Shown piece by piece: positions 26,113 to 47,200 of a stretch of 64,000 bases of DNA. Both the position numbers and the translations under genes were made by a program. This DNA comes from Candidatus Woesearchaeota archaeon B3_Woes. Its GTDB lineage: Archaea > Nanobdellota > Nanobdellia > Woesearchaeales > B3-WOES. How positions within the stretch are numbered: position 1 is the stretch's first letter; the number at the start of each line of letters is the position of its first letter. Location: positions 435,061 to 499,060 of the forward strand of contig NJBG01000001.1 in the NCBI GenBank assembly GCA_005222965.1. Reading direction: 5' to 3'. The notes under the pieces are model-generated. The model did not search any database. It saw nothing but the letters and a program-made list of their open reading frames with translations, and was not told the origin of the DNA.

Positions 26113-26155
26113 ACAAAAATATAGATATTGTTCATATTTAAATATTTCTATATAA

Positions 26156-27424: not shown

Positions 27425-27472
27425 TAATATAAAACAATAAAATTTATATAACACTAAACTTCATAATCTTCT

Positions 27473-28126: not shown

Positions 28127-28135
28127 TCCACTAAA

Positions 28136-32289: not shown

Positions 32290-32333
32290 AATAAATATAA
32301 TTTAAAGAACAAGATATATAAACTTTATGGTGG

Positions 32334-32824: not shown

Positions 32825-32839
32825 CTTAAAAAGAAAAAA

Positions 32840-33121: not shown

Positions 33122-33187
33122 CTCTTTGGATTAAACTGATACTATTAATTGTATTGATTTATGTTATATTTAAATCTTACTATTAAA

Positions 33188-33673: not shown

Positions 33674-33776
33674 TTTATCCGAATATTCTGTGAGGATATT
33701 TGAAAACACTTGAAAATCATTTGGATTTTCAGTGCACCAAAAATCTTTGATTTTTGTGTGTCTTTGATTTTCATTT

Positions 33777-34247
33777 TTAGCTTACTGTATAATATTTAAT
33801 CTCTAACATTCCAAATGAATTAGTTCTTGTTGTAGCATTATAAAGGAGGATAGGAATTGAGGTTTTATAAACAGATCCGCTCCTTGTTCTATTATAGATA
33901 TTCCATTCCTTGTTTGAAGGATATATCTCCTTAACAGTTATATCGCTATAATAAAAAAAAGGGTAATAGACATTATTTTTGTCTGGTAAAGTCATAAAAG
34001 CACTTAATTTATACATATCAAAACAGTTATCTTTTATTATGTTTTTAGATGAACACTGTAGTTCTGGCAAAAAAGAGATTGCTTGACTAACCTTTATTGA
34101 TTCAAGTTCTTGTATTTTTGCTATTTTCTGTCCCTGACTAAATCCACTTGTTCTTATATAAAAAGTAAAACCAATTACTATAATTACAAAAAAGATAAGC
34201 ATTATTGCAATTGTTTCCATCATTTGGATTTGTGATTTCTTTTTCAT
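33777..34247 (-). CDS. Pilin-like protein (class III signal peptide)
   Basis: Start re-assigned to Met at 34247: MKKKS|QIQMMETIAIMLIFFVIIVIGF. This removes the overlap with the upstream gene. Confidence 0.45.
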   Translation of the reverse strand: MKKKSQIQMMETIAIMLIFFVIIVIGFTFYIRTSGFSQGQKIAKIQELESIKVSQAISFLPELQCSSKNIIKDNCFDMYKLSAFMTLPDKNNVYYPFFYYSDITVKEIYPSNKEWNIYNRTRSGSVYKTSIPILLYNATTRTNSFGMLEIKYYTVS

Positions 34248-34249
34248 TT

Positions 34250-35296
34250 TTAATAAACAGCAGGGCACGAATTTGCCAAAGTAATACCATTATTTGTGCT
34301 TAAACTATCTGCCCATATTCTAACATTAGGGTAACTTTGTTCAGATGCAGCAGTTGCTATGTCTCCTATGTCATTTAAAGCATTGTCAAGACTATTATAA
34401 CAAACTCCACTAACATAACCATCTCTTAATGTTGTAGTTCTATCTTCATAAACTTTTGTAATGTTTTGTAATCTGTAAAATGCATTGTTCATCCCGCAAT
34501 CATAGATTTCTTTATTTTCAGAAAAAACAGCTGCTAAAAGAGATGCCTTACCAACATAATATGTAGATTCTGACACCCAACTTGCCTCATTATAATTAAA
34601 AAATTCTAAGCCTCCATTACAATCCATTCTTTCGTCTGCAGGATCACTCACACAACCGGGCGTTATATAAACTGCACTTATGTCTTCCTCTTTTGTGTCT
34701 CCAAAAGTGGAACCAGGGTTAAAAGTTACAGGATCACTAAAATATATTACTCTTACTTTATAATTATTTTTATCCCCGCTAACTGATCCTTTTTCTTTAC
34801 TGATAAAAAGTTTAGATTGGCCATCTTTAACAATATATTTTGGAGGCAATAAATCAAAAAGAGCATTTGCTAAATCAGTCACATCATCATCAATTATATA
34901 TCTGACTTCTGGGCTTGTTACATATAAAAAATTAGTAACTCTATAAGGTACACTCCAATCATGCGCATAAACAGAAACAGTATTTCTATCAGATTCTATT
35001 GAATCTGGAGCAAAAGCATATGGAAATCTTGCTGCAAATTGATTTCCTACTCTAAACCCTTCACAACCAAACTGAATCTTTTTGTTTGGAATCTCAACCA
35101 CAGAAGAGGTTCCAGTACTTACATATGAACTACTGAATATGGATTGTAAATCTGTTTGAATTGTGCTGGATATGCTGTCTTCAGAAAACTCTTTTTGTTT
35201 TTGGACAATTGAAATAAAAAACATCAAGATTATTCCGCCAATTATTAAAATCATTATCCAATTAAACTGAAATGAAATTTGAGATTTCTTAAACAT
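34250..35296 (-). CDS. Pilin-like protein (class III signal peptide), 348 aa
   Basis: MFKKS|QISFQFNWIMILIIGGIILMFF. Confidence 0.45.
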   Translation of the reverse strand: MFKKSQISFQFNWIMILIIGGIILMFFISIVQKQKEFSEDSISSTIQTDLQSIFSSSYVSTGTSSVVEIPNKKIQFGCEGFRVGNQFAARFPYAFAPDSIESDRNTVSVYAHDWSVPYRVTNFLYVTSPEVRYIIDDDVTDLANALFDLLPPKYIVKDGQSKLFISKEKGSVSGDKNNYKVRVIYFSDPVTFNPGSTFGDTKEEDISAVYITPGCVSDPADERMDCNGGLEFFNYNEASWVSESTYYVGKASLLAAVFSENKEIYDCGMNNAFYRLQNITKVYEDRTTTLRDGYVSGVCYNSLDNALNDIGDIATAASEQSYPNVRIWADSLSTNNGITLANSCPAVY

Positions 35297-35305
35297 CTTT
35301 TTATT

Positions 35306-35806
35306 TTACGACCATTCAGAAACCCAAACATGATTTCCCATGCTCTCTAATTTTAATGTCACTTTTCCATTTACTACTTCAACACATTCTTCCTGATCTG
35401 CTCCATCTTCAACCTTAATATCTCCAACATAGAAACTTACATCCCCTGGTGGAGCTAAAAACATATTTTTATCCTCTGCTCCGTTATTTATATGCCCATT
35501 TATCAATGGATATTGTGTTGAGATAGCAGCAGATGGAAAAGAAGGATATGATTCAACAAAACAAATATGATCATAATTTCCAGGAACCGTCAAAACCTTT
35601 TTTTTAATGGTTCCTTTTGAATCTGCCTCAATCTTTTCAACTTCGTTTTTTATATCACTTTCTATCTGTAAATAAGATATTTCCTCGCTTCTATCATTAA
35701 AATAGTTTATTGCTTTATATCCATACAACAAAGTCATAGAAAACACAACCATTGCAAGAACATACATAAATACCTGACCAGCCATCTGTGATTTTTTGTT
35801 TTTCAT
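35306..35806 (-). CDS. Pilin-like protein (class III signal peptide)
   Basis: MKNKKS|QMAGQVFMYVLAMVVFSM. Its start overlaps the stop of the giant gene (ATGA). Confidence 0.45.
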   Translation of the reverse strand: MKNKKSQMAGQVFMYVLAMVVFSMTLLYGYKAINYFNDRSEEISYLQIESDIKNEVEKIEADSKGTIKKKVLTVPGNYDHICFVESYPSFPSAAISTQYPLINGHINNGAEDKNMFLAPPGDVSFYVGDIKVEDGADQEECVEVVNGKVTLKLESMGNHVWVSEWS

Positions 35807-38800
35807 TTTTTGCCTTTTGGTTTTTTCTTAGTGCCTTCTTTAATCTCTTTTAATGTTTCAAAAACATCTCCACTTGATTTTTTACCTTTGGTTATTCCTT
35901 TTAATTGTGATAAAGCGTCTCCTTTTGTTTTTTTCTGAACTTTTGAAAGAGATACCCACTCTTTTGTTGGTTTAGAAGGTTTAACAATTCTTTTTGTCTC
36001 TCTTCCCCTTCTTTGTAATCCTCTTCGTCTTTCTTGTGGTTTAGATGTTCCAGTTTCAAAACTTGAAAAGACCCCTCTTCTCTTTTCTTCTCTTTTCTTC
36101 TTGCTTTTTGCAATTAAATTTTTCAATTGTTTATCTATTTTGATTGGTTTGATAATAGAAGGGTGTGGTTTTCTAACTGAAGTAATTGTGTGTGTCTGAG
36201 TGGGGGTTTTAGGAGGTTTTTTGCCTTGTTTTCTCATATAATCTACATACATTGGATATCCAAAATAAACTCCTACTGAAATCAAGATAATCAAAAATAC
36301 TATCCAGAAAAAAGTCCACCACACTGAACCAGGTTTTGAGTTAGCATCTAATGGGTCTGTCCCTTTTTCTATTTCTTTTTTATCAACAAAACCATCTCCA
36401 TCTGTATCTGAATTAAGTGGGCTTGTTCCTGCTCTGTCTTCTTCAAAATTACTTAGACCATCATTATCAGCATCTTCATCACCATCTAAAATACCATCTC
36501 CATCGCTATCAGGAGAATAAGGGTCTAAATTATACATTTGTTCAAATTCATTACTTAAACCATCTCCATCAATATCATCATCACAAGCATCACCTAATCC
36601 ATCACCGTCCATATCTAATTGATCTAAATTTGATTCATATGGGCAATTATCATCTTGGTTTAATATTCCATCTCCATCGCTATCTGATTTACAAATTCCC
36701 CCAATACATCTCAAATCACTCAAACAATCATCATCTATATCACAAAAATCCCCTTCTTCACATCCTTCACAAGAACCCCCGCAATCCACTCCTGTTTCTC
36801 CGCTATCTAAAATATTATTATGACATTTATCTGGTGGAGAACATTTACCTGTCACAACATTACAATAACCAGACTTACAATTGCTGTCTTTATTCTCACA
36901 TTCTTCTCCATTCTCGCACTTTGGACAATTGCCTCCACAATCTATGTCTGATTCAATACTATTTTCTACCTTATCATAACAGGTTGGGTCTGCACAATAT
37001 CCTTCAATACAAAAACCAGATACACAATCCATGTTTTCATTACATTGAGGTTGTTCAATCTGACACATACTAAGATCATATTCACAATCACTATCACAGT
37101 CTAACGAACCATTAATAAAATCACTATCATAATCATTACAATCATTAAAATCACCCAAATCCCAACCATCACATGCTTCTCCTGCATTAATTTCATCATT
37201 ACCACATTCTCCTTCAGTTCCCCCTTTACACTCGTTTTCATCAAAAGTGCAATCATTATTACATGCTAGCTCTCCTTCATAAAATCCCCTGCTAGAACAG
37301 GTAGCATTTCTCAAATCACCAATATCACATTCTTCAGTTGAATCTGCTGCACCATCTCCACATTCGCTTCCTTCTCCGCCAGTACATGAACTTGTATCAA
37401 ATATACAATCATTACAGGTTAATTCTCCTCCTGTAAACTCATCAAAACTAGAACACTCTTTATCTCCTATTTCGTCGCCTTCGCATTGTTCTCCTGTATT
37501 AATATCTATTACACCATCACCACAGTAACTTCCTTCTCCGCCTGTACATGAACTTGTATCAAATATACAATCATTATTACAACCTAAAATTCCTCCTGTG
37601 AAATCTGCTATATCAAAGCAAGTGGTGTCTCCTTTGTTCTCACCATCGCATTGTTCTCCTGTATTAATTTCTCCATCTCCACAATATCCAGAAGTTCCTC
37701 CTTCACATAATATTGTTTTTAATTCGCAGTTATCGCATATTAAAGTTCCTCCTGTGAAATCATCAAAATCTCTACAGTCGGTTTCTCCTTTGTTCTCGCC
37801 GTCGCATTGTTCTCCTGCGCTTGCATCTACTATCCCATCACCACAGTAACTTCCTTCTCCACCTGTACACAAACTTATATCAAACACACAATCGCTAGCG
37901 CAAGTTAAGATTCCACCTGTAAAATAAAAATCAGAGCATTCATTAAGGTCTTCTGCCCATTCTGCGTCTCCGTCGCATTGTTCTCCTGCATCAATAATAT
38001 TATTATTACAGTATCCTGAATCAGGACCACAAGGAGCACAACTTCCTCCGCAATCTACTCCTGTTTCGTCTTCATTTTTTATACTATCATCACAATGAGC
38101 AGGTTTAGCACTAATATCAATAGTTATACCATCACTTGACATAACATCTCCTTCTAAACCATATGCGTTTTCTGGCTTTACATCAAACTGATATTTTTGT
38201 TTATCTGCAAGATTTATATCATCTACAACTATCCACTCATCTTCTGTTGTTTCATCAAGCCAATCAAATACAAAACTATCTGTTGCTCCAAATTCTTTTA
38301 ATCTATAATAATACTGCGCAATTCTTGTATCAAGATCTTCTCCCAACCATTTAACTCTTAATCTAGTATGTTTCCATGTAATTTCTGGGTTTGGTTCATT
38401 GCTTGAATCATCAACATAATTCATTTTAGGAGGAGTTACGTCAACACTAAAACCTATTTCATAAGGGATAGATGGTAACCAACTAATTTGCCTGCTATCA
38501 TAACACTTTACATAATATCTATAATCTCCATTGCCCGGAACACTAATTGTTGCTTTGTGGTCTAAAGTGGTCTGTTTTGTAAAAGGCAGCCAAGTAGAAA
38601 TTGGAGAAGATTGATCTGTAGTATATTTACAATTAGTATCTAGGTTAACTTTCGCTCTTAAATCTATTTCATTAGTTGTAAAGTAAGGATTAGTCATACT
38701 AACGACAGATAAAGGAGCACTATCACTCACCTTAAAAGATATTGGCATTGTGCTTATGAGTTCTGCCATATTCATACATTCTACCATATAAGTTCTCATA

Positions 38801-41739
38801 ACATTTCCATAAGGCGGGTAAACCTCTTGGCTATGTGTTGTTTCAAATCTTTCACTATCATATCCAGGAAAGGATCCTTCATCTTCATGACCACTATAAG
38901 TACATATTGTTTTATCATCTGTAGTAATTTTTAAACTTGTAAAAGGAGGATCAGTAGCAACAAGCGCCGGATCTGCTCCTGTAAAAGGGACATATGTTGG
39001 AGGAGATGTATCAACAGATAAATCAAATTCTTTAGATGTGATTGAATTATAATAAACATCTTTACAATTCACATACAAAATATGTTGTATGCCTTCGTAT
39101 ATTCCTGAGATATGTTCGCTATGAACCACACTATTTGTCGTATCAAGTTGTAATGAATGGGCATAATCTGCTGCTTCATTATCTAAAGCATACTTACATA
39201 TTGCAGTGTTATCTGTTTTTAATTCCAATGTAAAGGATGAAGTTGGTGAAACTCCATATGAAGGTTTAACTAATGTTATATCTAAAGATGTTGAATCAGC
39301 ATTTACTTCAAAACTTCCATACTCAAGTATGTTATTTTTTGCATAATCACTAGCATCTACTTCTAAATTATATACTCCATCTATAAATTGCATAGAATCT
39401 ATTTGAAATACTTTGTTGTCTGTTGTTTTAAAATTGGATGTTATGTCTATGCCATCCATCAAAACCTGGTTTAACAAAGAGGGTTCATCAAATACTAAAA
39501 TTACAGTAGGGGTAGAAGAGTTAACTGTTTCATCATTTGGTTGAATACTAAGACTAGGAGATTTTGTGTCTACAACAAAAGTAAACTGTTTGTTAGAGCT
39601 CATCTTCCTTCCAAATCTGTTTTCAGCATTAAATTCATATTTATAGGTGTCATCTGGAAGATAAGACATATCAGTCAGAATATCTCCTATCTTTATTTCA
39701 TGATTTTGCTGGGAAGATGTCATTAAAGTCAACAAAATTGGATTAGTTGCTCTGTCTTCTAACCGATGATATGAGAGCCTTGCATTATTAGAAAAATTAA
39801 TTTGTATTATTGGTAATGGATTGTTTGTATAATATACACTATTTATGTAGTTTGAATCTTTAATATAATAAGCATAAGCATTGGGTCTAATGTCTGTTGA
39901 TGCTGCAAAAGACATATCCTTAACCAAACCTATGTTTTTTGAGGGATCTTCTGAATAATATTTAAGAATAGTATTTCCAGGTATTAAAGTGAGTGAATCT
40001 GATTCACAAGAACCTGCACAAAGTTTTAATGTTCCTTCATACTCTCCAACAGCTAAATTTCTATAAGTTGTTATTTTAAAATCTCCTGTCCTAGGCATAC
40101 AGGCACTTGAAGTATCTACACAATAATATGTTTTATAATCTACTGATCCTTTTGGTACAGCAGATTCTTCTATTTTAATTTTATCAATAATCTCTATGTT
40201 AAAGCCGTTTACAACCCCATCATTATCTTTTATTGTAGTAATTGTTGTTTCTGGTCTAAAATAATCTTTTTCACAATCTGGGTCTAAACTTCCTTCACAA
40301 TCTGGTAATGCAATCCCGTCTGCATCTTTTACACAATTTCCTTCTGTCCATCTACAAACATTGATTCCACAAGAATCTCCGCTAACATCGACAAATTCAT
40401 TAAGATTGTTTAATGATGCTGGAGAAGAAATAACACTACAATCTAATTGTGTGGTATATACCGGACAGCCCACGCTTCCACAGCTATTGCATGTTCCTCC
40501 TGCCTCAAAACAAGGATATTTATCAGTTGATAATGCCATTAACCTTTCTTCTGTAAAAATATCAAAAACAGAATTATATGCGCCATAATTAATATTCTCC
40601 ATACCATCAGATCCTTCTTGGTAACAGAATTGACAATTATCTGACTCATCATCAACACATACACCAATACCTAGTTCATCATAAATTGGTTCCCACCTGC
40701 AGGATGTTGCTGGATCCTGGACAGCCCCAACCATGCAATTGTCTTTTTCGCATGTTTCTTGAGATTTATAATCATAACAACCCATTGCGTCTCCCCCGCA
40801 ATTATAACAAGCATCGACATTTGTTGAAGACCTATCTAAAAAACAGTATTTATAATTAGATTCTGTTCCTTCACAAAGTTCTCGAGTTAAATAATACATT
40901 CCAAATGGATTTCCAAGGTCTTCATTGCAATCTGTCTCTTCAATACAAGTTCCACTTACGCATATATAATTTTCCTGACAAGCTGTTTCGCTATTAAGAG
41001 AATTGTGAATACTGCAAGAATATGGTTCATTACCAACACAAAATGTTGAAGGGGTAGTCAATCCTTCGCATTCAGAATCTCCAGAATAAATATTTACAGC
41101 TCCACTATCTTTTGAACTTTGGTATTGATAATTTCCTTGAATAACATACCTATATGTTGTTTCCCAGCTTATAGATATATCTGTATATGTTTTCTGGGTT
41201 GTTTCGCCTATTATTGAAAATTCAGTACAATCAGATCCGCTACATCTCATTATTGCATAATTAACTGCTGGACAATTATAATTATCCTCCCATGTAAGAG
41301 TTATTTGTCTAAATCCTCTATCCTCTCCTCTTATGATGTTGGTTGGTTTTATATTAAGATCAGGATCACTGCATCCCTCCCCTCCTGCCGCTAGAGAGCA
41401 AGATCCAACACAACATTGTTGACTTGAAGAGCATGCCCCCCCTTCTGGATTTGAAGAACAAGCTTCATAATCAGAACATGAACCAGGTCTACAAGTATTA
41501 CAAAGAGATAATCCACATGTTGTTGCGCATTCTTCATCACTACCTGCCGCCCCTTCAACTATTGTTCCACTACTCCACGCACATAGTTGAGCAATCTCTC
41601 CATTAGGGATCTGATAAGCTGTTTTTGGTAAACAACAACATGAAGGATAAGAAGCACCTTTAACAAAAAATACACTAAAGAGAAGAGTAGTTAAAAAAAT
41701 TAATCCTATTATTATTGTTATTTTTAATTTTTTGTTCAT
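35803..41739 (-). CDS. Giant (1978 aa) Cys-rich surface protein: signal peptide, Cys-rich/FN3-like and beta-sandwich modules, tandem CGDG…EQCD repeats, thrombospondin type-3 Ca-binding repeats, C-terminal TM anchor and polybasic cytoplasmic tail
   Basis: N-terminal signal MNKKLKITIIIGLIFLTTLLFSVFFVKG. At least five tandem modules of the form CGDG(x5-6)GEQCDGENKG(x)T(x)C(x)DF(x)DFTGG(x)L(x)C(x3)C(x)FDTS(x)CTGGEGS. TSP3-like DSDGDGILNQDDNCP…DMDGDGLGDACDDDIDGDGLSNEFE…DSDGDGILDGDEDADNDGLSNFEED…DTDGDGFVDKKE. TM VWWTFFWIVFLIILISVGVYFGY. About 150-aa K/R-rich tail. Confidence 0.7.
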   Translation of the reverse strand: MNKKLKITIIIGLIFLTTLLFSVFFVKGASYPSCCCLPKTAYQIPNGEIAQLCAWSSGTIVEGAAGSDEECATTCGLSLCNTCRPGSCSDYEACSSNPEGGACSSSQQCCVGSCSLAAGGEGCSDPDLNIKPTNIIRGEDRGFRQITLTWEDNYNCPAVNYAIMRCSGSDCTEFSIIGETTQKTYTDISISWETTYRYVIQGNYQYQSSKDSGAVNIYSGDSECEGLTTPSTFCVGNEPYSCSIHNSLNSETACQENYICVSGTCIEETDCNEDLGNPFGMYYLTRELCEGTESNYKYCFLDRSSTNVDACYNCGGDAMGCYDYKSQETCEKDNCMVGAVQDPATSCRWEPIYDELGIGVCVDDESDNCQFCYQEGSDGMENINYGAYNSVFDIFTEERLMALSTDKYPCFEAGGTCNSCGSVGCPVYTTQLDCSVISSPASLNNLNEFVDVSGDSCGINVCRWTEGNCVKDADGIALPDCEGSLDPDCEKDYFRPETTITTIKDNDGVVNGFNIEIIDKIKIEESAVPKGSVDYKTYYCVDTSSACMPRTGDFKITTYRNLAVGEYEGTLKLCAGSCESDSLTLIPGNTILKYYSEDPSKNIGLVKDMSFAASTDIRPNAYAYYIKDSNYINSVYYTNNPLPIIQINFSNNARLSYHRLEDRATNPILLTLMTSSQQNHEIKIGDILTDMSYLPDDTYKYEFNAENRFGRKMSSNKQFTFVVDTKSPSLSIQPNDETVNSSTPTVILVFDEPSLLNQVLMDGIDITSNFKTTDNKVFQIDSMQFIDGVYNLEVDASDYAKNNILEYGSFEVNADSTSLDITLVKPSYGVSPTSSFTLELKTDNTAICKYALDNEAADYAHSLQLDTTNSVVHSEHISGIYEGIQHILYVNCKDVYYNSITSKEFDLSVDTSPPTYVPFTGADPALVATDPPFTSLKITTDDKTICTYSGHEDEGSFPGYDSERFETTHSQEVYPPYGNVMRTYMVECMNMAELISTMPISFKVSDSAPLSVVSMTNPYFTTNEIDLRAKVNLDTNCKYTTDQSSPISTWLPFTKQTTLDHKATISVPGNGDYRYYVKCYDSRQISWLPSIPYEIGFSVDVTPPKMNYVDDSSNEPNPEITWKHTRLRVKWLGEDLDTRIAQYYYRLKEFGATDSFVFDWLDETTEDEWIVVDDINLADKQKYQFDVKPENAYGLEGDVMSSDGITIDISAKPAHCDDSIKNEDETGVDCGGSCAPCGPDSGYCNNNIIDAGEQCDGDAEWAEDLNECSDFYFTGGILTCASDCVFDISLCTGGEGSYCGDGIVDASAGEQCDGENKGETDCRDFDDFTGGTLICDNCELKTILCEGGTSGYCGDGEINTGEQCDGENKGDTTCFDIADFTGGILGCNNDCIFDTSSCTGGEGSYCGDGVIDINTGEQCEGDEIGDKECSSFDEFTGGELTCNDCIFDTSSCTGGEGSECGDGAADSTEECDIGDLRNATCSSRGFYEGELACNNDCTFDENECKGGTEGECGNDEINAGEACDGWDLGDFNDCNDYDSDFINGSLDCDSDCEYDLSMCQIEQPQCNENMDCVSGFCIEGYCADPTCYDKVENSIESDIDCGGNCPKCENGEECENKDSNCKSGYCNVVTGKCSPPDKCHNNILDSGETGVDCGGSCEGCEEGDFCDIDDDCLSDLRCIGGICKSDSDGDGILNQDDNCPYESNLDQLDMDGDGLGDACDDDIDGDGLSNEFEQMYNLDPYSPDSDGDGILDGDEDADNDGLSNFEEDRAGTSPLNSDTDGDGFVDKKEIEKGTDPLDANSKPGSVWWTFFWIVFLIILISVGVYFGYPMYVDYMRKQGKKPPKTPTQTHTITSVRKPHPSIIKPIKIDKQLKNLIAKSKKKREEKRRGVFSSFETGTSKPQERRRGLQRRGRETKRIVKPSKPTKEWVSLSKVQKKTKGDALSQLKGITKGKKSSGDVFETLKEIKEGTKKKPKGKK
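37190..38040. repeat. Imperfect tandem DNA repeats (~165 bp period, ~5 copies) encoding the CGDG…EQCD Cys-rich modules of the giant surface protein
   Basis: Near-identical strings recur at about 37355, 37520 and 37850 (…caccacagtaacttccttctcc[ga]cctgtaca[tc][ga]aactt[ga]tatcaaa[tc]a[tc]acaatc…). Confidence 0.7.
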
Positions 41740-41740
41740 T

Positions 41741-43105
41741 CTAACATCCTGTACCTGTTATAGTAAAATCAATATATTGCCAATCCCTTGATTTGTCAAA
41801 TCCAGGAACACACGAATATGGTGAATAATGATTATCTGAAACACAAATTTCTACTGTAAACGACCCACCAATCCCATTTCCTACAGGCGGATAAGATTCG
41901 CAATATTGGCTTATAATAGTTTTACTAAAAGAAGTGTTTCTTGCTAAACCTAAATCTAAAGAGGTGTAGTATACAGTTATGCTCTTTTCATCAGGGTCAG
42001 TAACATTAACCATATCACTAAAATAAGTTTCATTTAAAACTTCTCCAACCCCTATTGTTTTAGGAGAAGTTATATTTTCTAAAACAGGGTATCTGTTTTG
42101 TCTTGCAAATTGAAAGATAAAAGGGGTGTTTGAAAAATTATCTTCTATTTTGATGATATTATCCTCAAAAGGGGATATCTCATTACCGCCTTGTCCATGT
42201 CTCAAAATAGTAAGAATCATATTGCCATCAATTAATCCCAATGAATCTATTGTAACGTCATAACTTTCATTATTTTTATCAAAATCAAGCAAAGTATTTG
42301 CTATTTCATGTAATTTTTTTAATCTAACTTTTGTGTCATAATAAAATTCATCCACTCTTATCTGCTTTTTTGTTGTCGGATCAACAATATTCAAAGGGTA
42401 GTTTATTATTGTAATTATTGTTTCTTCGGTTGTATTAACACTAACACTTAAAGTTCCATTTAATTCTATCTTAAACCCTTCATCTTCAAAAATTGATAAG
42501 TCAATGCAATTTTCAAACGTGTTGTTGATATAAACCTTTAATTGATTATACATGCTTCCTCCTCCATCTAATTCTGGTAAATAAGTCATATCCCCAAAAC
42601 ACCCTTTTTTTAGTGTACAATTCCTTTCACTAGGCTTTGGAAAACCCATCCAAGGATACTCTCCTCCTTTAAAATTTCCTACTAAAACTTCAGAAATATT
42701 GTTTTTGCAAGTTATACCAGATCCACCTAAACAATTATAACTTTCGCTTGATGACCTTTTCAAACCATAACTTACATTAAGTTTTGTATCTCCTTGTACA
42801 AGAGTAAGAGAAAAATTAGCAGGTCTAGGAATATCAATGCCTCCTTGATAATCATATATTACTCCCCCTTGGTTTCCTAATAATTTCATTCCGTCTTTTG
42901 CAACCTTTCCCAAACACGCTGTTACATAAGATCTTATGCTGGCTATGTCAAAAGTTGTTTCTTGATGTACTAATGCTTCTTTTCTTGTTTTGTGTCCTGT
43001 TGTTTGCTTTCCAGCATAAAAAACAAGCCCCATAACAATCAAAAAAACAAAACCAATTAACATAAAGAAGGTTAATTGTCCTTTTTTTGAAAATTTTTCT
43101 TTCAT
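41741..43105 (-). CDS. Class III signal peptide protein with a large extracellular domain unusually dense in N-glycosylation sequons
   Basis: MKEKFSKKG|QLTFFMLIGFVFLIVMGLVF. At least 12 N-x-S/T sequons (NVS, NIS, NCT, NNT, NGT, NTT, NES, NFS, NIT, NET, NVT, NTS). Overlaps the upstream gene by 4 nt. Confidence 0.5.
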   Translation of the reverse strand: MKEKFSKKGQLTFFMLIGFVFLIVMGLVFYAGKQTTGHKTRKEALVHQETTFDIASIRSYVTACLGKVAKDGMKLLGNQGGVIYDYQGGIDIPRPANFSLTLVQGDTKLNVSYGLKRSSSESYNCLGGSGITCKNNISEVLVGNFKGGEYPWMGFPKPSERNCTLKKGCFGDMTYLPELDGGGSMYNQLKVYINNTFENCIDLSIFEDEGFKIELNGTLSVSVNTTEETIITIINYPLNIVDPTTKKQIRVDEFYYDTKVRLKKLHEIANTLLDFDKNNESYDVTIDSLGLIDGNMILTILRHGQGGNEISPFEDNIIKIEDNFSNTPFIFQFARQNRYPVLENITSPKTIGVGEVLNETYFSDMVNVTDPDEKSITVYYTSLDLGLARNTSFSKTIISQYCESYPPVGNGIGGSFTVEICVSDNHYSPYSCVPGFDKSRDWQYIDFTITGTGC

Positions 43106-46100
43106 TTTATTCTTAATTTGGGTCCTAAATCGTTTAATAGCTCATAATAACCTTGGGTTAAACCGCCAGTAAAAACATAATTAACATTTCCTTGTTTTAC
43201 ACAATCAAAAGGCACTAAAACAGGATTAGCAACTTTATAATTTTCAATCATAACACATAGATTTGTATTAAAATTAGTATATGTTGCAGACATGTATTTT
43301 TTATTCTTTATTTCTTCTGTTATGATATAAATTGATTTTTCTCCTTTTTTGTGTAAATATATCTTATTAAAATTACTAGTTTCATTAACAAATCCATAAT
43401 CATATGAAAGGCGTATATTTTGTAAATAATAAAGTGTTGGCTCAAATAAATTTCTTATATAAGCTGCTTCTCCTCCTGTCAGAACATCACTTATAGATGG
43501 CTCGTTTCTAGTATAAATTACTGATTTGATTTTATTATTATAATATACTCCACCACCACAAACTTCAAAAGTACTTGAATCCAATACGCTGCTGCAATCC
43601 CTGTTAGTTCCGCCTATTGCTTCTAATATAGAGTAAGAAGATGCGTCTACGTCATGGTTAATAGAAGCTCCAATTATGACTTTATTTTCATCATATTTCA
43701 AAACACATAAATTATTAATACAAGGGACTATGTTTCCTTTTCCAATATTACATGTATATCCTCCTGTTTGGAAATAATTTACAGTAGGATACCATTCATT
43801 TATAGAATACCCATAAAAGTTTAATACTTTATCATAGCTATCACAAAATAAGCTATATTCGTTTGAACTACTTCCAATATCCATTAATTGTCTTATTAAT
43901 AAAGCGGTTCTTGATGTCCATTCTCCATTTCTGCAATAATGGTCTCCGATAAATTCTCCATCATTTATGCATCTGACTTCATTAAGAGGGTAATGAGTAA
44001 CGCTTGTTGCGTCCTCAACAGTTTTATCAAAACTTAGTTCATCTGGGTTTACAAGACATTGGGTATCATCTAAACAATAACCACTATCTGTTTTATCCCA
44101 TGTATATGCTTCTTTTAAACTTCCTACACATTTCCCTCCTATAACCTTCATCTTCGGTTTACTGCAACAAGCATAAGAAGCATATGCTCCTTTTGTAAAA
44201 TATTCTTCTGGGTCATCTCCGCAACAAGCTCCATCTCCTGCATCACCTGTTAAACCCCAAGGTGGATGTCCTAAGGCCTCTTCTTCTGAAATATTTACTA
44301 TCGCCTTACAAACACCAAGATCAGTATCAGATCCATACCATTGCCCCATAGCACACAGGTGAACATCTGGAAATTCTCCATGCAAATCACCACTTGCAAC
44401 ACATTCACCATCTATAACACAATAAAGTTCGTCTGGACAACACGCTCTATTAAAAGGTGGAGTTGTTTGATCAAAAGTTGGATTTGTTTGATATTCGTCT
44501 GTACAATCACTCTCTCCGTCATCATTAACTCCGCAGGTTCTATTCCTAATTGGAGATAGATACCCTTCAGGAGAACAATCTAAATCAGAACAATCAATAG
44601 TACCATCACAATCATTATCATATCCATCAAAACAAAAATCTTCTTCTATTGGTATTCGGATGTTTATTGGACCTTCATCAATTCCACTTATAACACCATC
44701 AAGCCAATCTAATTTAGGAGTATTTGGATCACAATCACAAAAAGGACTTGATGATAAACCTGGATTTATATAATAAGGGTTGAAATTCATAGTGGAATCG
44801 ATGCTTTCAGATGTGCCATTATCCATACAATCCAAATATGTAGAACCTAGATGACAAGATTCAGCATGATAAAGATTAGAAGGTTGAATACCATATCCAT
44901 CTTCATCATCATCAATACAAGAAGTAACACATCTTCCTTCTCCATCACAATGTTTTCCATCTCCTTTTTCTTCATTAGGAGTAAACTCATTACAATCCCA
45001 TATTGCTGTATAATACGGATATTCCTCTCCAGCCACAAGATAAGAATAATCTTCTGCCTCTTCTTCTGAAAAGATCTTGGGATCATCTACAGAATATTCT
45101 CCAGCAGGCAAATTTTGAGCGAGACATCCTCCTCTACAAGTATAATGTTGACAAACAGGATCAGGGTCGCAACTTGCTACGTCTTTTTGCCTGGTGGCTT
45201 TTTCAACGTCTTCTGGTTCTAATTCTTTTGTTTCATTAATAAAATCTCCATCACAATACATGTCGCCAGCCCACGGGTCTAATGGTTGACAACGTTTTTC
45301 TCCTTCTCTATTATATTGAACACAATGTCCTTTGCCATCTCCTTCTGCGTCCCATGCAAAACATTCTTCATCTTCGCTACATTCATCATTAATTGCTAAT
45401 CCTCCTTTAACAGAGCAACAAACTTCATACTTATAATCAGAATCATCAAAACAACTTGCAAAATGAGCATTATTTACATATTCTCCATCAATCTCTCCTG
45501 CTAAAGAAAACATACAAAAATATGAATTCTCCCCGTTTGAATCTTCTAAAGCGTCACATTCCTGGTCTGTATTTGTAACCTGACAATCCAAGTCAACATC
45601 TAAATCTGTTGTTAAACAAACTTCATAAGAATAATCCCCTCTCCAATAAGTAGACCCATGTGCATTATCCCTATCTGATAAAGAAATTATATGTCCATCA
45701 AGACCACAAGCAGTATAGTCCTCATTCCTGCTTATAGATTCAAAACCAGAAATATTACAACATATATTATTTTTATTGCTCCCAAAATAAGAATCACTAC
45801 CAGATGCATGAGCATTATAAGGCGGATCTGATAAACTAATAATAAAATGTTCACCAGTTTCACAATTATCTCTTACAACACATCTGCCAGCGGCTTTTGA
45901 ACCATCTTTAGTATACTCACAACCTTTTCCATTTATCTTATCCACCTCCCCATCACAATCATTATCATATCCATCACAGCTCTTTTCTGACTCTTGATAC
46001 TTGTCATTGTGTTGATAATAAGTTGAAGAATCACATCCTGGCCACACACCATTAGTACATGTTTCCTGTGCTCCAACACAAACGCCGTTTAAAGCTTTCG

Positions 46101-46458
46101 AATCAGTCTTACTACAAAGTCTTTGATCTCCAGAAGAACAAACAGAAAGTTTACAGTAAGGCGCTTTTTCGGGACAGACCGCATCAGTTAATTCGTTACA
46201 GTATTTTATTTGTATACAGTAAGTAGAGGCTACCTCTTCGCCGAGTGTTGTCTTACAAACCTCAGTATCACTTGACCCACAAAAAAAGGAGGGAGCTGAA
46301 GGAGCACAACCATCAGGACAACCACCAGGCTCCATTGTATGATAGGAACAGTAGAGTGGGTAGTCACCTACACAATCTCCAACAACACCCTCACCAACAA
46401 CCACAAAACTAACCAAAACAACAAAAATCAAAAAGATTGGTTTTAATTTGGGTTTCAT
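43102..46458 (-). CDS. Giant (1118 aa) secreted Cys-rich protein with MopE-type (CDGxDNDCDG) putative metal-binding motifs
   Basis: Sec signal MKPKLKPIFLIFVVLVSFVVVGEG. CDGYDNDCDGEVDK and CFDGYDNDCDGTIDC match the PF11617-type Cu-binding motif. More than 90 Cys. No C-terminal TM. Confidence 0.65.
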   Translation of the reverse strand: MKPKLKPIFLIFVVLVSFVVVGEGVVGDCVGDYPLYCSYHTMEPGGCPDGCAPSAPSFFCGSSDTEVCKTTLGEEVASTYCIQIKYCNELTDAVCPEKAPYCKLSVCSSGDQRLCSKTDSKALNGVCVGAQETCTNGVWPGCDSSTYYQHNDKYQESEKSCDGYDNDCDGEVDKINGKGCEYTKDGSKAAGRCVVRDNCETGEHFIISLSDPPYNAHASGSDSYFGSNKNNICCNISGFESISRNEDYTACGLDGHIISLSDRDNAHGSTYWRGDYSYEVCLTTDLDVDLDCQVTNTDQECDALEDSNGENSYFCMFSLAGEIDGEYVNNAHFASCFDDSDYKYEVCCSVKGGLAINDECSEDEECFAWDAEGDGKGHCVQYNREGEKRCQPLDPWAGDMYCDGDFINETKELEPEDVEKATRQKDVASCDPDPVCQHYTCRGGCLAQNLPAGEYSVDDPKIFSEEEAEDYSYLVAGEEYPYYTAIWDCNEFTPNEEKGDGKHCDGEGRCVTSCIDDDEDGYGIQPSNLYHAESCHLGSTYLDCMDNGTSESIDSTMNFNPYYINPGLSSSPFCDCDPNTPKLDWLDGVISGIDEGPINIRIPIEEDFCFDGYDNDCDGTIDCSDLDCSPEGYLSPIRNRTCGVNDDGESDCTDEYQTNPTFDQTTPPFNRACCPDELYCVIDGECVASGDLHGEFPDVHLCAMGQWYGSDTDLGVCKAIVNISEEEALGHPPWGLTGDAGDGACCGDDPEEYFTKGAYASYACCSKPKMKVIGGKCVGSLKEAYTWDKTDSGYCLDDTQCLVNPDELSFDKTVEDATSVTHYPLNEVRCINDGEFIGDHYCRNGEWTSRTALLIRQLMDIGSSSNEYSLFCDSYDKVLNFYGYSINEWYPTVNYFQTGGYTCNIGKGNIVPCINNLCVLKYDENKVIIGASINHDVDASSYSILEAIGGTNRDCSSVLDSSTFEVCGGGVYYNNKIKSVIYTRNEPSISDVLTGGEAAYIRNLFEPTLYYLQNIRLSYDYGFVNETSNFNKIYLHKKGEKSIYIITEEIKNKKYMSATYTNFNTNLCVMIENYKVANPVLVPFDCVKQGNVNYVFTGGLTQGYYELLNDLGPKLRIK

Positions 46459-46514: not shown

Positions 46515-47057
46515 TTAATCAACACAAGTCGCACCACATTTTATAGCTCCGTCGTAGCCTCCATCATTTTGGGCAAGAGTTTTAAGAGTCCATTCTCCAT
46601 TAAACTCACCATCAACCTGGCATGAATATTCCTCATTGTTCATATTCTCTACTTCGTCGAGTCCAACATACGATAAAAAACAAAACTTATGAGTTCCTAA
46701 TTCGTCTGTTGTCTCCTTTGTCACATCTACGGCGAAATCTCCTTTGTATGCAGTTACCCATTCTCCAGTTGTGGATTTTACTGCTCCTCCGAAATCAAGA
46801 GTCCCTTCAACATCTAAATCCCCTGCAATATTTAAATTACCCACCAAACCCCCAGTAATCTCTAAATCATCATCTATTTTTACAGAATTTGCATCTGTTC
46901 TACTTGTTATTGTGTTTGTATATACTGGATCATGATAAGCACCGCCTGTTGGAAAACCATCAGCTATTACTAACCCAATCAATAATAAACAAACCAAGCC
47001 AGTTAAATAATACAAATGCTTTTTCTTAATGTTAATTTCAATTTTCATTTTATACAC
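46515..47057 (-). CDS. Secreted or anchored protein with short repetitive G-rich beta-strand motifs, first gene of the island operon
   Basis: N-terminal anchor YLTGLVCLLLIGLVIADG. Repeats ITGGLVGNLNIAGDLDVEGTLDFGG. 180 aa. Confidence 0.4.
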   Translation of the reverse strand: MYKMKIEINIKKKHLYYLTGLVCLLLIGLVIADGFPTGGAYHDPVYTNTITSRTDANSVKIDDDLEITGGLVGNLNIAGDLDVEGTLDFGGAVKSTTGEWVTAYKGDFAVDVTKETTDELGTHKFCFLSYVGLDEVENMNNEEYSCQVDGEFNGEWTLKTLAQNDGGYDGAIKCGATCVD

Positions 47058-47062: not shown

Positions 47063-47200
47063 TTATTTTCTATTATCTTTTTTGATTTTTTCACCTAAAG
47101 CCTCATTAATATATTTGATTAAAGTTTTATTTTGCAGAAGAGCGTTTAATTTGGCTTTTTTATGCAACTCGTTCTCAATTTCAATATTAATTCGAGTCAT
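47063..47200 (-). CDS. Unannotated small ribbon-helix-helix (CopG/Arc-like) putative transcription regulator
   Basis: 45 aa: MTRINIEIENELHKKAKLNALLQNKTLIKYINEALGEKIKKDNRK. Predicted beta-strand (RINIEIE) followed by two helices. Lies directly upstream of the island operon. Not in the ORF track. Confidence 0.35.
   Translation of the reverse strand: MTRINIEIENELHKKAKLNALLQNKTLIKYINEALGEKIKKDNRK

What the first reader, a model, noticed from the sequence alone, without database searches (positions are those of the whole stretch)
43102..46458. 1118-aa secreted Cys-rich protein with two MopE-type CDGxDNDCDG putative copper-binding motifs, in the same locus as an FGE (copper oxidase) domain protein
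CDGYDNDCDGEVDK and CFDGYDNDCDGTIDC match the conserved core of the MopE/Cu-binding motif family (PF11617-like), which is mostly known from Myxococcales and methanotroph surface proteins. The protein has a Sec signal, more than 90 Cys and no TM, so it is probably secreted or attached to the S-layer. About 17 kb away the island encodes a secreted FGE-sulfatase-domain protein, and that fold is a copper-dependent oxidase in canonical FGE. Shared metal usage is speculative. The co-occurrence is still notable for an AT-rich, presumably anaerobic archaeon.
Basis: partly seen in the sequence, partly recalled or inferred. Interest (0 to 1): 0.55.

Follow-up and report, generated by a model that had tools for sequence, protein, structure and literature searches.

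The report
Calcium-binding surface protein in pilin operon
This is a secreted, cysteine-rich surface protein of a tiny DPANN archaeon: its "copper" motifs are almost certainly calcium-binding loops, and its real hallmark is an undescribed tail domain that ties it to a conserved pilus-like gene cluster probably used for attachment.

Summary
The ORF (43102-46458, minus strand, 1118 aa) and both CDGYDNDCDG motifs are real and far beyond chance. The protein has 76 Cys, not more than 90. The Pfam MopE hit is sub-threshold (23.3 vs 27 bits), although motif 1 lies in a true PF11617-type repeat unit.

The copper reading fails. MopE binds Cu(I) through two His and a kynurenine, not through this motif. 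The nearest solved relative of motif 2, the teneurin-4 C-rich domain, binds three Ca2+, and all nine ligand side chains are conserved here. The FGE-domain neighbour lacks both Cu-ligand cysteines and lies on the opposite strand.

The defining feature is instead the C-terminal 344 aa. This unannotated domain occurs in about 1000 protein clusters. Named members are mostly Woesearchaeota or Aenigmarchaeota. It has no Pfam match and no solved-fold match. N-terminal heads vary between members.

In 8 of 10 loci the gene heads a conserved operon: a class III-signal (pilin-like) ~450-aa protein, a giant membrane-anchored TSP3 protein, then four minor-pilin-like genes. The first junction is often a 4-nt overlap.

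Best reading: a Ca2+-stabilised adhesin-like component of an Epd-like pilus or surface apparatus. The tip-adhesin role is inferred, not shown.

The parts
43102..46458 (-). Target gene, 1118 aa (CEE44_02545 of Ca. Woesearchaeota archaeon B3_Woes): secreted Cys-rich protein with a variable N-terminal head and a conserved C-terminal domain
46375..46458 (-). aa 1-28: Sec-type signal peptide (MKPKLKP + hydrophobic core + GEGVVG). It has no [KR][GAS] class III motif
   Evidence: Hydropathy, pattern test. 75-81% identical in homologues. The cleavage site was not predicted with a dedicated tool
46099..46374 (-). aa 29-120: hypervariable Cys-rich N-terminal region (27-45% identity, 32-63 gapped positions against homologues)
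45925..46098 (-). aa 121-178: single copy of the ~64-aa PF11617-type repeat unit (GVCxGxQxxCxxGxWxxC...Y...E..CDGxDNDCDGxxD)
   Evidence: Matches each of 21 repeats of P0012 (domain E 1e-8 to 1e-13 among those printed). Pfam PF11617 best stretch aa 158-173
45931..45987 (-). aa 158-176: motif 1, EKSCDGYDNDCDGEVDKIN, with a DxDxDGxxD loop. Predicted TSP3-like Ca2+ site(s). Degenerate in P0003
45394..45876 (-). aa 195-355: three internal repeats [IF]SLSD..NAH......Y.YEVCC of unknown fold, found only in the three closest homologues
44887..44919 (-). aa 514-524: CIDDDEDGYGI, third DxDxDG-type loop, invariant in the three homologues
44575..44643 (-). aa 606-628: motif 2, EDFCFDGYDNDCDGTIDCSDLDC. An acidic double-disulfide module carrying all nine Ca2+-ligand side chains of the teneurin-4 C-rich domain. 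The region is 67-77% identical in homologues
44137..44538 (-). aa 641-774: CC-containing Cys modules (ACCPDE..., ACCGDDPEEY..., ACCSKP...). CCGDD-type modules recur in the N-terminal parts of many family members
43105..44136 (-). aa 775-1118: conserved C-terminal domain (CTD), the family-defining module. It ends in the conserved tail W.DLTxKLR[ILV]x (here LNDLGPKLRIK). It has no Pfam and no solved-fold relative
41741..43105 (-). Downstream partner, 454 aa, with a class III-like N-terminus (KKG|QLTFFMLIGF). Its start overlaps the target stop by 4 nt. Conserved next to CTD genes in 8 loci
35803..41739 (-). Giant 1978-aa Cys-rich protein: Sec signal, Big-like region, 4 CGDG..GEQCDG repeats, 7 DxDxDG/TSP3 Ca2+ loops, a C-terminal TM (~aa 1803-1832) and a 142-aa basic tail. 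Conserved third gene of the operon
33188..35806 (-). Four minor-pilin-like genes (166, 348, 163 and 173 aa), all with KK[AS]|Q + hydrophobic N-termini, co-linear with L004, L010, L012 and L001
32334..33121 (-). Three tandem small (78, 85, 93 aa) genes with MKKA|QGLSL class III-like signals and 6 Cys each. Candidate major pilins
   Evidence: Size and +1 Gln match Methanococcus Epd pilins (PMC3875500)
46515..47057 (-). Upstream 180-aa membrane-anchored protein, conserved (L001) and triplicated (L003) upstream of target homologues
47063..47200 (-). 45-aa ribbon-helix-helix-like ORF (HicB/ParD-like) at the head of the gene run. Near-identical gene at the same place in L003. Possible regulator

Best explanation
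The gene encodes a Sec-secreted, disulfide-rich extracellular protein of a DPANN (Woesearchaeota) archaeon, built from two functionally different halves.

The N-terminal ~750 aa form a fast-evolving 'head' of small Cys-knotted modules. This head includes three DxDxDG-type acidic loops: motif 1, DDDEDG and motif 2. These loops bind Ca2+, not copper, and rigidify the head in the way TSP type 3 repeats and the teneurin C-rich domain are rigidified.

The C-terminal 344 aa (CTD) are a conserved, previously undescribed alpha/beta domain that defines a large DPANN family. I infer that the CTD is the docking module. It would couple the protein to the products of the operon it heads: a class III-signal ~450-aa pilin-like protein (translationally coupled), a giant membrane-anchored Ca2+-binding TSP3 protein, four minor-pilin-like proteins and three small candidate major pilins.

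The most likely role is as the non-pilin adhesin or cap component of an Epd-like type IV pilus or surface apparatus used for attachment to a surface or host cell. The variable head would give binding specificity.

Shown: the gene, the motifs, motif homology, Ca2+-ligand identity to 7PLP, the size of the CTD family, the lack of known relatives, conserved synteny, and start/stop overlaps.
Inferred: actual Ca2+ binding, processing of the neighbours by a prepilin peptidase, a physical CTD-partner interaction, and the adhesin or tip role.
For: Ca2+ rather than Cu:
- 7PLP is the only PDB sequence match.
- 7PLP binds three Ca2+ through nine side chains (PMC9058538), all identical in motif 2.
- Both motifs fit DxDxDGxxD, and there are 3 DxDxDG loops against 0.09 expected, 0/20000 shuffles.
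- The MopE Cu site is His/His/kynurenine.
- CorA and MopE have a separate Ca2+ site.

Extracellular:
- N-terminal signal and no TM.
- 76 Cys, with Cys columns invariant across the family.

CTD as the core:
- The exhaustive profile search gives 999 hits at E<=1e-3 and 561 at E<=1e-10, nearly all to profile positions ~760-1095.
- Single-sequence phmmer with the target CTD hits about 140 of 150.
- 25 of 28 complete copies end at the protein's last residue with W.DLTxKLR[ILV]x.
- Standalone signal+CTD proteins exist.
- Heads vary: CBM_4_9, Laminin_G_3, PKD, PPC, dockerin; MopE in only 3 of 41.
- Within close homologues, identity rises from 27-45% at the N-terminus to 78-84% in the CTD.

Operon link:
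- Gene-by-gene co-linearity at 23-59% CTD identity in the window, L001, L004, L008, L009, L010, L012 and L013.
- The CTD gene and the next gene overlap by 4 nt in the window, L004 and L012, and lie within 2 nt in L009, L010 and L013.

Pilin-like neighbours:
- 15 of 20 island genes have a [KR][GAS]+hydrophobic N-terminus against 1 of 37 outside, Fisher p=1e-8.
- +1 Gln and 78-93-aa genes match Methanococcus EppA pilins (PMC3875500).
- DPANN dark-matter islands of this kind were already proposed to be divergent pilins (PMC6393860).
- Archaeal TFF loci often carry large adhesin-like proteins (preprint 10.64898/2026.04.22.720090).
Against: - No metal binding was measured. The 7PLP sequence match is weak on its own (E=0.78). 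The disulfide pattern differs: there is an extra Cys617, and Ser replaces C858.
- The first ligand (E606) is Gln in both close homologues, and P0003 has a 5-residue insertion in motif 2.
- No Pfam pilin or class III signal model hits any neighbour, so the pilin reading rests on my own N-terminal pattern and on analogy.
- No TFF ATPase, platform protein or prepilin peptidase is in the window or in the ±10 kb retrieved around homologous loci.
- Two of ten CTD loci are not next to the operon (L006, L011).
- The CTD model is only of moderate confidence (pLDDT 73.7).
- No interaction was modelled.
Confidence: 0.5

Rival explanations
1. One reading: a secreted copper-binding (MopE-like) protein, possibly sharing copper usage with the nearby FGE-fold oxidase.
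For: Pfam PF11617 'Cu-binding_MopE' hit at E=7.6e-5. An FGE-sulfatase domain protein lies in the same island.
Against: - The hit is below the gathering score.
- The motif is not MopE's copper site, which is His132/His203/Kyn130.
- PF11617 is reported as non-specific.
- There is no Trp or Met, and only one His, around the motifs.
- All nine ligand residues are identical to a solved Ca2+ site.
- The FGE-domain protein lacks both Cu-ligand Cys. It aligns end-to-end only with SUMF2, which I recall as the catalytically inactive paralogue.
- The FGE gene is on the opposite strand, and none is called in the homologous loci within the flanks retrieved.
Confidence: 0.03
2. A cell-envelope or S-layer-associated structural protein. 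The CTD would anchor variable Ca2+-stabilised ectodomains to the cell surface, for example to the giant membrane-anchored TSP3 protein. The class III-signal neighbours would be surface-tethered proteins of a bindosome-like layer rather than a filament.
For: - The target has no anchor of its own, whereas the giant neighbour has a C-terminal TM and basic tail.
- The CTD always sits at the extreme C-terminus.
- No TFF motor genes are nearby.
- Standalone CTD proteins and CTD genes outside the operon exist.
- The TFF preprint notes that some adhesin-like TFF proteins resemble S-layer proteins.
Against: - Three tandem 78-93-aa +1-Gln genes look like major pilins.
- Five further pilin-like genes in a fixed order resemble a minor-pilin set.
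- Pilin loci are typically separate from the ATPase locus in Methanococcus.
Confidence: 0.25
3. A secreted cargo or effector. The pilin-like genes would form a type II-secretion-like pseudopilus that exports the target, and other CTD proteins, with the CTD serving as export or recognition signal.
For: - A conserved C-terminal domain with a strictly conserved terminal motif on otherwise variable proteins.
- Several CTD proteins are encoded away from the operon.
- The target has a Sec signal rather than a class III signal.
Against: - Archaea have a single membrane, so a Sec-exported protein needs no second export step.
- No enzymatic or toxin domain was detected in the target.
- The tight 1:1 genomic coupling with the ~450-aa pilin-like gene suggests a complex rather than a cargo.
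Confidence: 0.1
4. The motifs and Cys richness are low-complexity noise in a fast-evolving ORF without specific function.
For: The N-terminus is hypervariable and motif 1 is degenerate in P0003.
Against: - 0/20000 shuffles reproduce the motifs.
- The protein is conserved end-to-end in two relatives (54 and 60% by BLASTP).
- The CTD is conserved in about 1000 clusters.
- Synteny is conserved.
Confidence: 0.01

Closest known systems
Teneurin C-rich domain (human teneurin-4, PDB 7PLP) and thrombospondin type 3 repeats
   Same: Motif 2 aligns without gaps to [24 protein letters not shown]. All nine Ca2+-ligand side chains (E, D, D, N, D, D, D, D, D) and three of the four aligned Cys are identical. 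Both motifs carry the DxDxDGxxD loop that forms Ca sites I and II as in TSP3 repeats. The setting is extracellular and disulfide-stabilised.
   Different: The module has four Cys (C609, C617, C623, C628) rather than six. There is an extra Cys at the teneurin G846 position, and Ser replaces C858. The conotoxin-like tail is absent, so the disulfide topology must differ. Sequence significance is weak (E=0.78). The organism is an archaeon and the surrounding architecture is unrelated. Ca2+ binding was not measured here.
PF11617 'Cu-binding_MopE' / NCBIfam NF033662 acidic double-disulfide repeat proteins (tandem repeats in Myxococcales and other bacterial surface proteins)
   Same: Target aa 121-178 is one full ~64-aa unit of this repeat class, with domain E 1e-8 to 1e-13 among the printed repeats of P0012. 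P0004 and P0005 carry PF11617 and match the target.
   Different: The target has only one or two isolated units instead of 10-26 tandem copies. Pfam and NCBIfam scores are below their cut-offs. The motif occurs in only 3 of 41 CTD-family members sampled, so it is an accessory module here.
MopE / CorA copper proteins of methanotrophs
   Same: Secreted or surface-associated proteins that share the short acidic Cys motif from which Pfam named PF11617. Ca2+ stabilises MopE.
   Different: The MopE/CorA Cu(I) site is His-His-kynurenine in a beta-sandwich domain. The target has no detectable similarity to that domain: MopE* never appears in PDB sequence searches with the target or with motif 1. It also has no His/Trp constellation near the motifs.
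PilY1/PilC-type non-pilin tip adhesins of bacterial type IV pili (functional analogy, recalled from general knowledge; archaeal PilY-like adhesins are noted in preprint 10.64898/2026.04.22.720090)
   Same: A large (~1100 aa) Sec-secreted non-pilin protein encoded with minor-pilin genes, with a variable N-terminal part, a conserved C-terminal domain and Ca2+-binding loops.
Methanococcus maripaludis Epd pilus / archaeal TFF 'system 1' pilin loci
   Same: Neighbours have short class III-like signals with +1 Gln. There are small 78-93-aa candidate pilins and several larger pilin-like proteins in one operon. The locus is separate from any ATPase, and adhesin-like proteins are associated.
   Different: No DUF361 or other pilin Pfam hit. 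The signal ends in Ala or Ser as well as Gly. The small candidate pilins lack a +5 Glu. The pilin heads are Cys-rich. The CTD protein and the giant TSP3 protein have no described counterpart in the Epd cluster.

Membership tests
PF11617 (Cu-binding_MopE putative metal-binding motif) | Pfam HMM score at or above the gathering threshold (27 bits) | tested here: not met
   23.3 bits, E=7.6e-5, two stretches, best at aa 158-173
PF11617 (Cu-binding_MopE putative metal-binding motif) | Sequence homology to bona fide PF11617-bearing repeat units (C.DG.DN.CDG..D core within a ~64-aa Cys unit) | tested here: met
   Target aa 111-178 match 21 repeats of P0012 (domain E 1e-8 to 1e-13 among those printed). 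PF11617-annotated P0004 and P0005 hit the target at E=1.5e-13 and 3.4e-8
MopE/CorA copper-binding proteins | MopE*/CorA beta-sandwich domain with the His-His-Trp(kynurenine) Cu(I) site | tested here: not met
   No PDB sequence match to MopE* or CorA. No Trp or Met and at most 1 His within about 25 aa of the motifs. Site definition from PMC3423442 and PMC3912023
Teneurin C-rich / TSP3-like Ca2+-binding module | Conserved acidic/Asn ligand set for Ca2+ (E, D, D, N, D, D, D, D, D spacing of 7PLP) | tested here: met
   9 of 9 identical in motif 2. Motif 1 keeps the DxDxDGxxD core only. In P0002 and P0003 the first ligand is Gln
Teneurin C-rich / TSP3-like Ca2+-binding module | Six-Cys 1-3, 2-5, 4-6 disulfide pattern of the teneurin C-rich domain | tested here: not met
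   The module has four Cys. C858 is Ser, and there is an extra Cys at the G846 position. It resembles NCBIfam 'acidic double-disulfide repeat', but at 21 bits against a cut-off of 41
Teneurin C-rich / TSP3-like Ca2+-binding module | Actual Ca2+ occupancy or Ca2+-dependent stability | not testable with these tools
   Needs ITC, ICP-MS, thermal shift or a structure
DPANN CTD family (defined here; no public name) | ~340-aa C-terminal domain with invariant C21, C27, C56, C68, W73, T77, C98, C144, N160 (CTD numbering) and the terminal W.DLTxKLR[ILV]x | tested here: met
   Target aa 775-1118 is the first row of A2. HMM from A2 scores 380 bits on the target ORF. The tail is LNDLGPKLRIK
DPANN CTD family (defined here; no public name) | Position as the gene immediately upstream of the w454-type class III-signal protein and the giant w1978-type protein | tested here: met
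   Window plus 7 other loci. Exceptions are L006 and L011
PilY1/PilC tip adhesins | C-terminal PilY1/PilC beta-propeller domain | tested here: not met
PilY1/PilC tip adhesins | Physical association with a minor-pilin tip complex | not testable with these tools
   Only genomic coupling is shown.
Archaeal type IV pilins (class III signal peptide proteins), applied to the neighbours | N-terminal [KR][GA]-cleavage motif followed by a hydrophobic helix | tested here: met
   15 of 20 island genes against 1 of 37 outside. This was my own pattern, not FlaFind
Archaeal type IV pilins (class III signal peptide proteins), applied to the neighbours | Match to a curated pilin or class III signal family model | tested here: not met
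   No Pfam or NCBIfam pilin hit at E<=10. The only exception is a weak Flp1_like hit (E=2e-4, 21 bits against 33.5) on 25816-26178
Archaeal type IV pilins (class III signal peptide proteins), applied to the neighbours | Cognate prepilin peptidase, ATPase and platform protein in the genome | not testable with these tools
   Not in the 64-kb window. The rest of the 1.0-Mb contig is not available, and the genome-contig scan did not recover the genome
Canonical copper-dependent FGE (neighbour at 26156-27424) | Two active-site cysteines that bind Cu(I) (human C336/C341) | tested here: not met
   The sequence GGSYTGNPAEVRAT has no Cys. The only Cys are at 281, 322, 416 and 418. Ligand definition from PMC6676471 and PMC4505483. 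The exact canonical motif spacing is recalled from memory

The most novel reading that the evidence does not exclude
The ~340-aa C-terminal domain is a new fold that defines a DPANN-wide, so far undescribed attachment apparatus. CTD proteins would cap or dock onto an Epd-like pilus built from the co-operonic pilin-like proteins and anchored by the giant Ca2+-binding TSP3 protein. Interchangeable heads (Cys/Ca2+ modules, CBMs, LamG, PKD) would set host or substrate specificity. On this reading the family would be a genomic marker for how Woesearchaeota-type DPANN cells recognise and hold their hosts.
Probability: 0.3. Interest if true: 0.7.

Novelty: new variant of a known kind. Interest (0 to 1): 0.45.

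Why it matters
How uncultivated DPANN archaea such as Woesearchaeota attach to hosts or surfaces is largely unknown. Their genomes are full of unannotated secreted proteins.

This analysis removes a misleading 'copper' label that comes from a Pfam family name. It replaces that label with a structurally grounded Ca2+ prediction.

It also identifies a large protein family, about 1000 clusters at 50% identity, defined by a conserved C-terminal domain. That domain has no Pfam entry and no solved structural relative. The family heads a conserved operon of pilin-like proteins and a giant Ca2+-binding membrane protein.

If the domain is the docking module of an attachment apparatus, the variable heads become a readable record of binding specificity. 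The operon then becomes a concrete target for cryo-ET, proteomics and heterologous reconstitution.

If it is merely an envelope protein family, the result is still a useful annotation but is not surprising.

Tried and rejected
- Full-length AlphaFold2 with the 3-sequence alignment gave pLDDT 25 and pTM 0.20. It is unusable, so no statement about motif geometry is made from it.
- The genome-contig scan with the full-length alignment found no relative and not even the source genome.
- The afdb50 fold library was unavailable, so AFDB relatives of the CTD remain unchecked.
- PHROGs and PADLOC scans of the target and neighbours were empty, so phage-structural and defence-system readings were dropped.
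- A PDB sequence search with the motif-1 region gave only chance-level hits.
- A permissive Pfam scan (E<=10) of ten pilin-like neighbours gave no pilin family. The pilin reading is therefore explicitly pattern-based.
- The word-indexed homologue search with the CTD alignment returned only 16 proteins, against about 1000 by the exhaustive search. It was used for names and contexts only.
- The 'bacterial' labels (Desantisbacteria, Patescibacteria) for two CTD proteins were discounted because their contigs are under 2 kb.
- An enzymatic reading of the CTD was considered and set aside. The invariant columns are Cys, Trp, Thr and Asn, with no invariant His, Ser or Glu set. This is weak negative evidence only.

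Full report
OBSERVATION

Both quoted motifs are present, CDGYDNDCDGEVDK at aa 161-174 and CFDGYDNDCDGTIDC at aa 609-623, and they share the 9-mer DGYDNDCDG. The only hydrophobic segment is the N-terminus (aa 1-31), which fits a Sec-type signal and no membrane span.

The Cys count is 76 (6.8%), not more than 90.

The motifs are not a by-product of Asp/Cys-rich composition. In 20000 composition-preserving shuffles, none contains two strict motifs. None reaches the three DxDxDG loops observed, against a mean of 0.09.

Pfam PF11617 scores 23.3 bits (E=7.6e-5), below its gathering score of 27. NCBIfam's acidic double-disulfide repeat scores 21 bits against a cut-off of 41.

Homology of the motif-1 region is nevertheless solid. 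Target aa 111-178 match each of the 21 tandem ~64-aa repeats of a 2929-aa protein (P0012), with domain E-values of 1e-8 to 1e-13 among those printed. PF11617-annotated proteins hit the target directly. A related multi-repeat protein, P0093, is from Myxococcales.

The window is from an archaeon of about 30% GC that encodes TBP, MCM, PolD, Cdc6, RNase P p30 and RadA. The protein is identical to CEE44_02545 of Ca. Woesearchaeota archaeon B3_Woes.

IS IT A COPPER MOTIF?

No evidence supports this, and several lines argue against it.

- The Cu(I) site of MopE* is His132, His203 and kynurenine-130. Ca2+ separately stabilises the protein (PMC3423442). CorA has the same Cu site and a distinct octahedral Ca2+ site made of acidic side chains (PMC3912023).
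- The target has no Trp or Met, and at most one His, within about 25 residues of either motif.
- The only solved structure that matches the target by sequence is the teneurin-4 C-rich domain, 7PLP. The match is weak (E=0.78) but ungapped over aa 606-631.
- That 1.5-Å structure binds three Ca2+ through E835, D840, D843, N844, D845, D847, D851, D854 and D856. Sites I and II resemble thrombospondin type 3 repeats (PMC9058538).
- All nine side-chain ligands are identical in motif 2: E606, D611, D614, N615, D616, D618, D622, D625 and D627.
- The link between the teneurin motif and PF11617 was already noted in the literature (PMC3278476).

There are differences. The archaeal module has four rather than six Cys. 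E606 is Gln in the two close homologues, and P0003 has a 5-residue insertion. Motif 1 keeps only the DxDxDGxxD core and is degenerate in P0003.

I therefore predict Ca2+-stabilised, disulfide-locked loops. This is an inference from ligand identity, not a measurement.

THE FGE NEIGHBOUR

A 422-aa protein at 26156..27424 carries an FGE-sulfatase domain (E=1.6e-44). It lies on the opposite strand.

Canonical FGE holds Cu(I) between two active-site cysteines (PMC6676471 and PMC4505483). As I recall, these sit in the motif GGSY-x-C-xxxx-C. Here that stretch reads GGSYTGNPAEVRAT, and the protein's only Cys are at 281, 322, 416 and 418.

Alignments to solved FGEs stop before the active site. SUMF2, which I recall as the catalytically inactive paralogue, aligns to the end.

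The protein is therefore an FGE-fold protein without the copper site. No FGE-domain gene is called in the homologous loci within the flanks retrieved, though those flanks mostly do not reach the equivalent distance.

The metal theme shared across this locus is calcium. The giant neighbour has TSP3 repeats and seven DxDxDG loops.

WHAT THE PROTEIN REALLY IS

The word-indexed search found only two full-length relatives, at 60% and 54% identity. The exhaustive profile search over 1.84 billion representatives found 999 proteins at E<=1e-3, 561 at E<=1e-10 and 92 at E<=1e-30. Nearly all of them match only profile positions ~760-1095, that is target aa ~775-1118.

Evidence on this C-terminal domain (CTD):

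- With the target's CTD alone, phmmer hits about 140 of the 150 listed proteins.
- The domain normally sits at the extreme C-terminus. It ends in a conserved W.DLTxKLR[ILV]x tail in 25 of 28 complete copies; the target has LNDLGPKLRIK.
- Some members are just signal peptide plus CTD, about 360 aa.
- A 24-sequence alignment at about 30% identity has invariant Cys, Trp, Thr and Asn columns.
- No member has a Pfam domain covering the CTD.
- The N-terminal parts of 41 sampled members are a mix of extracellular modules: CBM_4_9, Laminin_G_3, PKD, PPC, dockerin and NosD. PF11617 occurs in only 3 of the 41.
- Named members are Woesearchaeota (four) and Aenigmarchaeota (one). Two bacterial labels sit on contigs under 2 kb.
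- Within the three close homologues, identity climbs from 27-45% with many indels at aa 29-120 to 78-84% in the CTD. The motif-2 region is at 67-77% and the motif-1 unit at 28-49%.

GENOMIC CONTEXT

The target is the second gene of a tight minus-strand run. In order, with the distance to the previous gene:

1. w180.
2. Target (56 nt).
3. w454 (4-nt overlap).
4. w1978 (1 nt).
5. w166 (4-nt overlap).
6. w348 (9 nt).
7. w163.
8. w173.
9. Three small genes of 93, 85 and 78 aa.
10. w317.
11. w975.

Every gene from w454 to w317 except the giant w1978 begins with KK[AGS]-Q followed by a hydrophobic helix.

Across the 21.9-43.2 kb island, 15 of 20 genes have a [KR][GAS]+hydrophobic N-terminus, against 1 of 37 elsewhere in the window (Fisher p=1e-8). 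This is the pattern of archaeal class III (prepilin) signals.

A +1 Gln and 67-76-aa pilins are hallmarks of the EppA-processed Epd pilins of Methanococcus. Those pilin genes also lie away from the ATPase locus (PMC3875500).

No curated pilin model hits these proteins. No TFF ATPase, platform protein or peptidase is in the window. Makarova et al. proposed that such DPANN dark-matter islands are divergent pilins (PMC6393860). A recent survey notes that large adhesin-like proteins are common in archaeal TFF loci.

CONSERVED OPERON

The order CTD protein, then w454-type, then w1978-type, then w166, w348, w163 and w173 types recurs with gene-by-gene BLAST support, although several loci are cut short by contig ends. 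CTD identity to the target in each locus:

| Locus | CTD identity to target |
|---|---|
| L001 | 59% |
| L010 | 47% |
| L004 | 33% |
| L008 | 29% |
| L009 | 23% |

In L004 the CTD protein is a standalone 398-aa gene. By gene sizes, the same order is seen in L012 and in the Aenigmarchaeota contig L013.

The junction between the CTD gene and the w454-type gene is a 4-nt overlap in the window, L004 and L012. It is within 2 nt in L009, L010 and L013. This suggests translational coupling.

Two loci do not fit the pattern: L006, which sits among HepT/MNT genes, and L011, which is only a weak partial hit.

MECHANISM

Best-supported model (overall confidence about 0.5): the protein is exported by Sec. 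Its head folds into disulfide-locked modules rigidified by Ca2+ at three DxDxDG-type sites. The CTD docks it onto the products of its operon.

The likeliest partner is the translationally coupled w454 pilin-like protein, within a minor-pilin-like complex. The giant Ca2+-binding, membrane-anchored w1978 protein would belong to the same apparatus. The variable head would provide binding specificity, that is an adhesin or cap role.

This is functionally analogous to PilY1/PilC in bacterial type IV pili. It is not homologous to them, because the fold test was not met.

My confidence in the sub-claims:

| Sub-claim | Confidence |
|---|---|
| Not a copper protein | ~0.9 |
| Extracellular, Ca2+-binding, disulfide-rich | ~0.8 |
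| Functionally coupled to the pilin-like operon | ~0.8 |
| Filament-tip adhesin specifically | ~0.35 |

The main rival (0.25) is an envelope-anchoring role without a filament. Cargo of a pseudopilus (0.1), a copper protein (0.03) and noise (0.01) are less likely.

NOVELTY AND SCORE

The finding as written, a MopE-type copper motif linked to FGE, is not supported.

What is there is a new variant of a known kind: a large adhesin-like protein in an archaeal pilin locus. It carries a conserved C-terminal domain that has no family entry and no solved-fold relative, yet is found in about 1000 protein clusters and anchors a conserved DPANN operon.

That is moderately interesting for DPANN cell biology. 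It is not a categorical surprise. Interest is 0.45.

Noticed in passing
window 47063..47200 (-): A 45-aa ORF in the apparent 273-bp gap between RNase P p30 and the operon. It hits HicB (21.9 bits, gathering score 21) and ParD, so it is ribbon-helix-helix-like. A near-identical 45-aa gene sits at the same position in L003 (7521-7658). It may be a transcriptional regulator of the operon, or an orphan antitoxin.
   Followed up: partly
window 21949..43105: There are two classes of class III-like N-termini. All ten such genes at 31220-43105 have +1 Gln (KK[AGS]|Q). Those at 21949-31063 have [KR]G followed by I, L, K, E or M. This hints at two separate pilin-like systems or two peptidase specificities, as with EppA and FlaK in Methanococcus.
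   Followed up: partly
window 32334..33121 (-): Three tandem small genes (78, 85 and 93 aa) start MKKAQGLSL + hydrophobic helix and end in a head with exactly 6 Cys each. They are candidate disulfide-knotted major pilins. Two of them overlap by 4 nt.
   Followed up: no
window 35803..41739 (-): The giant 1978-aa protein has a conserved CCC motif just after its signal peptide and four CGDG..GEQCDG repeats (aa 1299-1525). It also has seven DxDxDG/TSP3 loops (aa 1686-1783), a C-terminal TM (~aa 1803-1832) and a 142-aa tail with 46 Lys/Arg. It is conserved in all syntenic loci (1687 to more than 3500 aa).
   Followed up: partly
window 26156..27424 (+): The FGE-sulfatase-fold protein lacks both Cu-ligand cysteines (GGSYTGNPAEVRAT). 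It sits between the two pilin-like clusters on the opposite strand. In this respect it resembles non-catalytic FGE-fold proteins; PorK/GldK and PvdO are among its PDB matches.
   Followed up: partly
window 45394..45876 (-), target aa 195-355: There are three internal repeats of the form [IF]SLSD..NAH......Y.YEVCC. They have no relatives beyond the three closest homologues and no family hit. Fold and function are unknown.
   Followed up: partly
L003 7676..9989; window 46515..47057: The 180-aa membrane-anchored protein upstream of the target is triplicated in L003 (192, 195 and 200 aa, 30-33% identity). Each copy is preceded by a 35-46-aa ORF. This points to local tandem expansion of this operon-leading gene.
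   Followed up: partly
L004 8044..11197: In a distant Woesearchaeota MAG the CTD protein is a standalone 398-aa gene preceded by a separate 639-aa Sec-signal protein. The head and the CTD may be split into two genes there. In L008 the upstream partial ORF carries CCGDD modules and the CTD ORF lacks a signal, which suggests a frameshift or a real split.
   Followed up: no
L006 10001..11605: A 534-aa CTD paralogue (35% identity over the CTD) lies outside any pilin operon. It sits among HepT/MNT toxin-antitoxin pairs and a PT-HINT/AXH protein. CTD proteins are therefore not exclusively operon-bound.
   Followed up: no
   Followed up: no
window 9828..9941 (+): There is a stand-alone 5S rRNA gene (74 bits) with no 16S or 23S in the window, and no tRNA gene in 64 kb.
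   Followed up: no
window 36417..37073 (+): A 218-aa His/Leu/Tyr-rich ORF lies antisense inside the giant gene. It looks like a mechanical by-product of the Asp/Cys/Gly-rich coding strand, not a gene.
   Followed up: no
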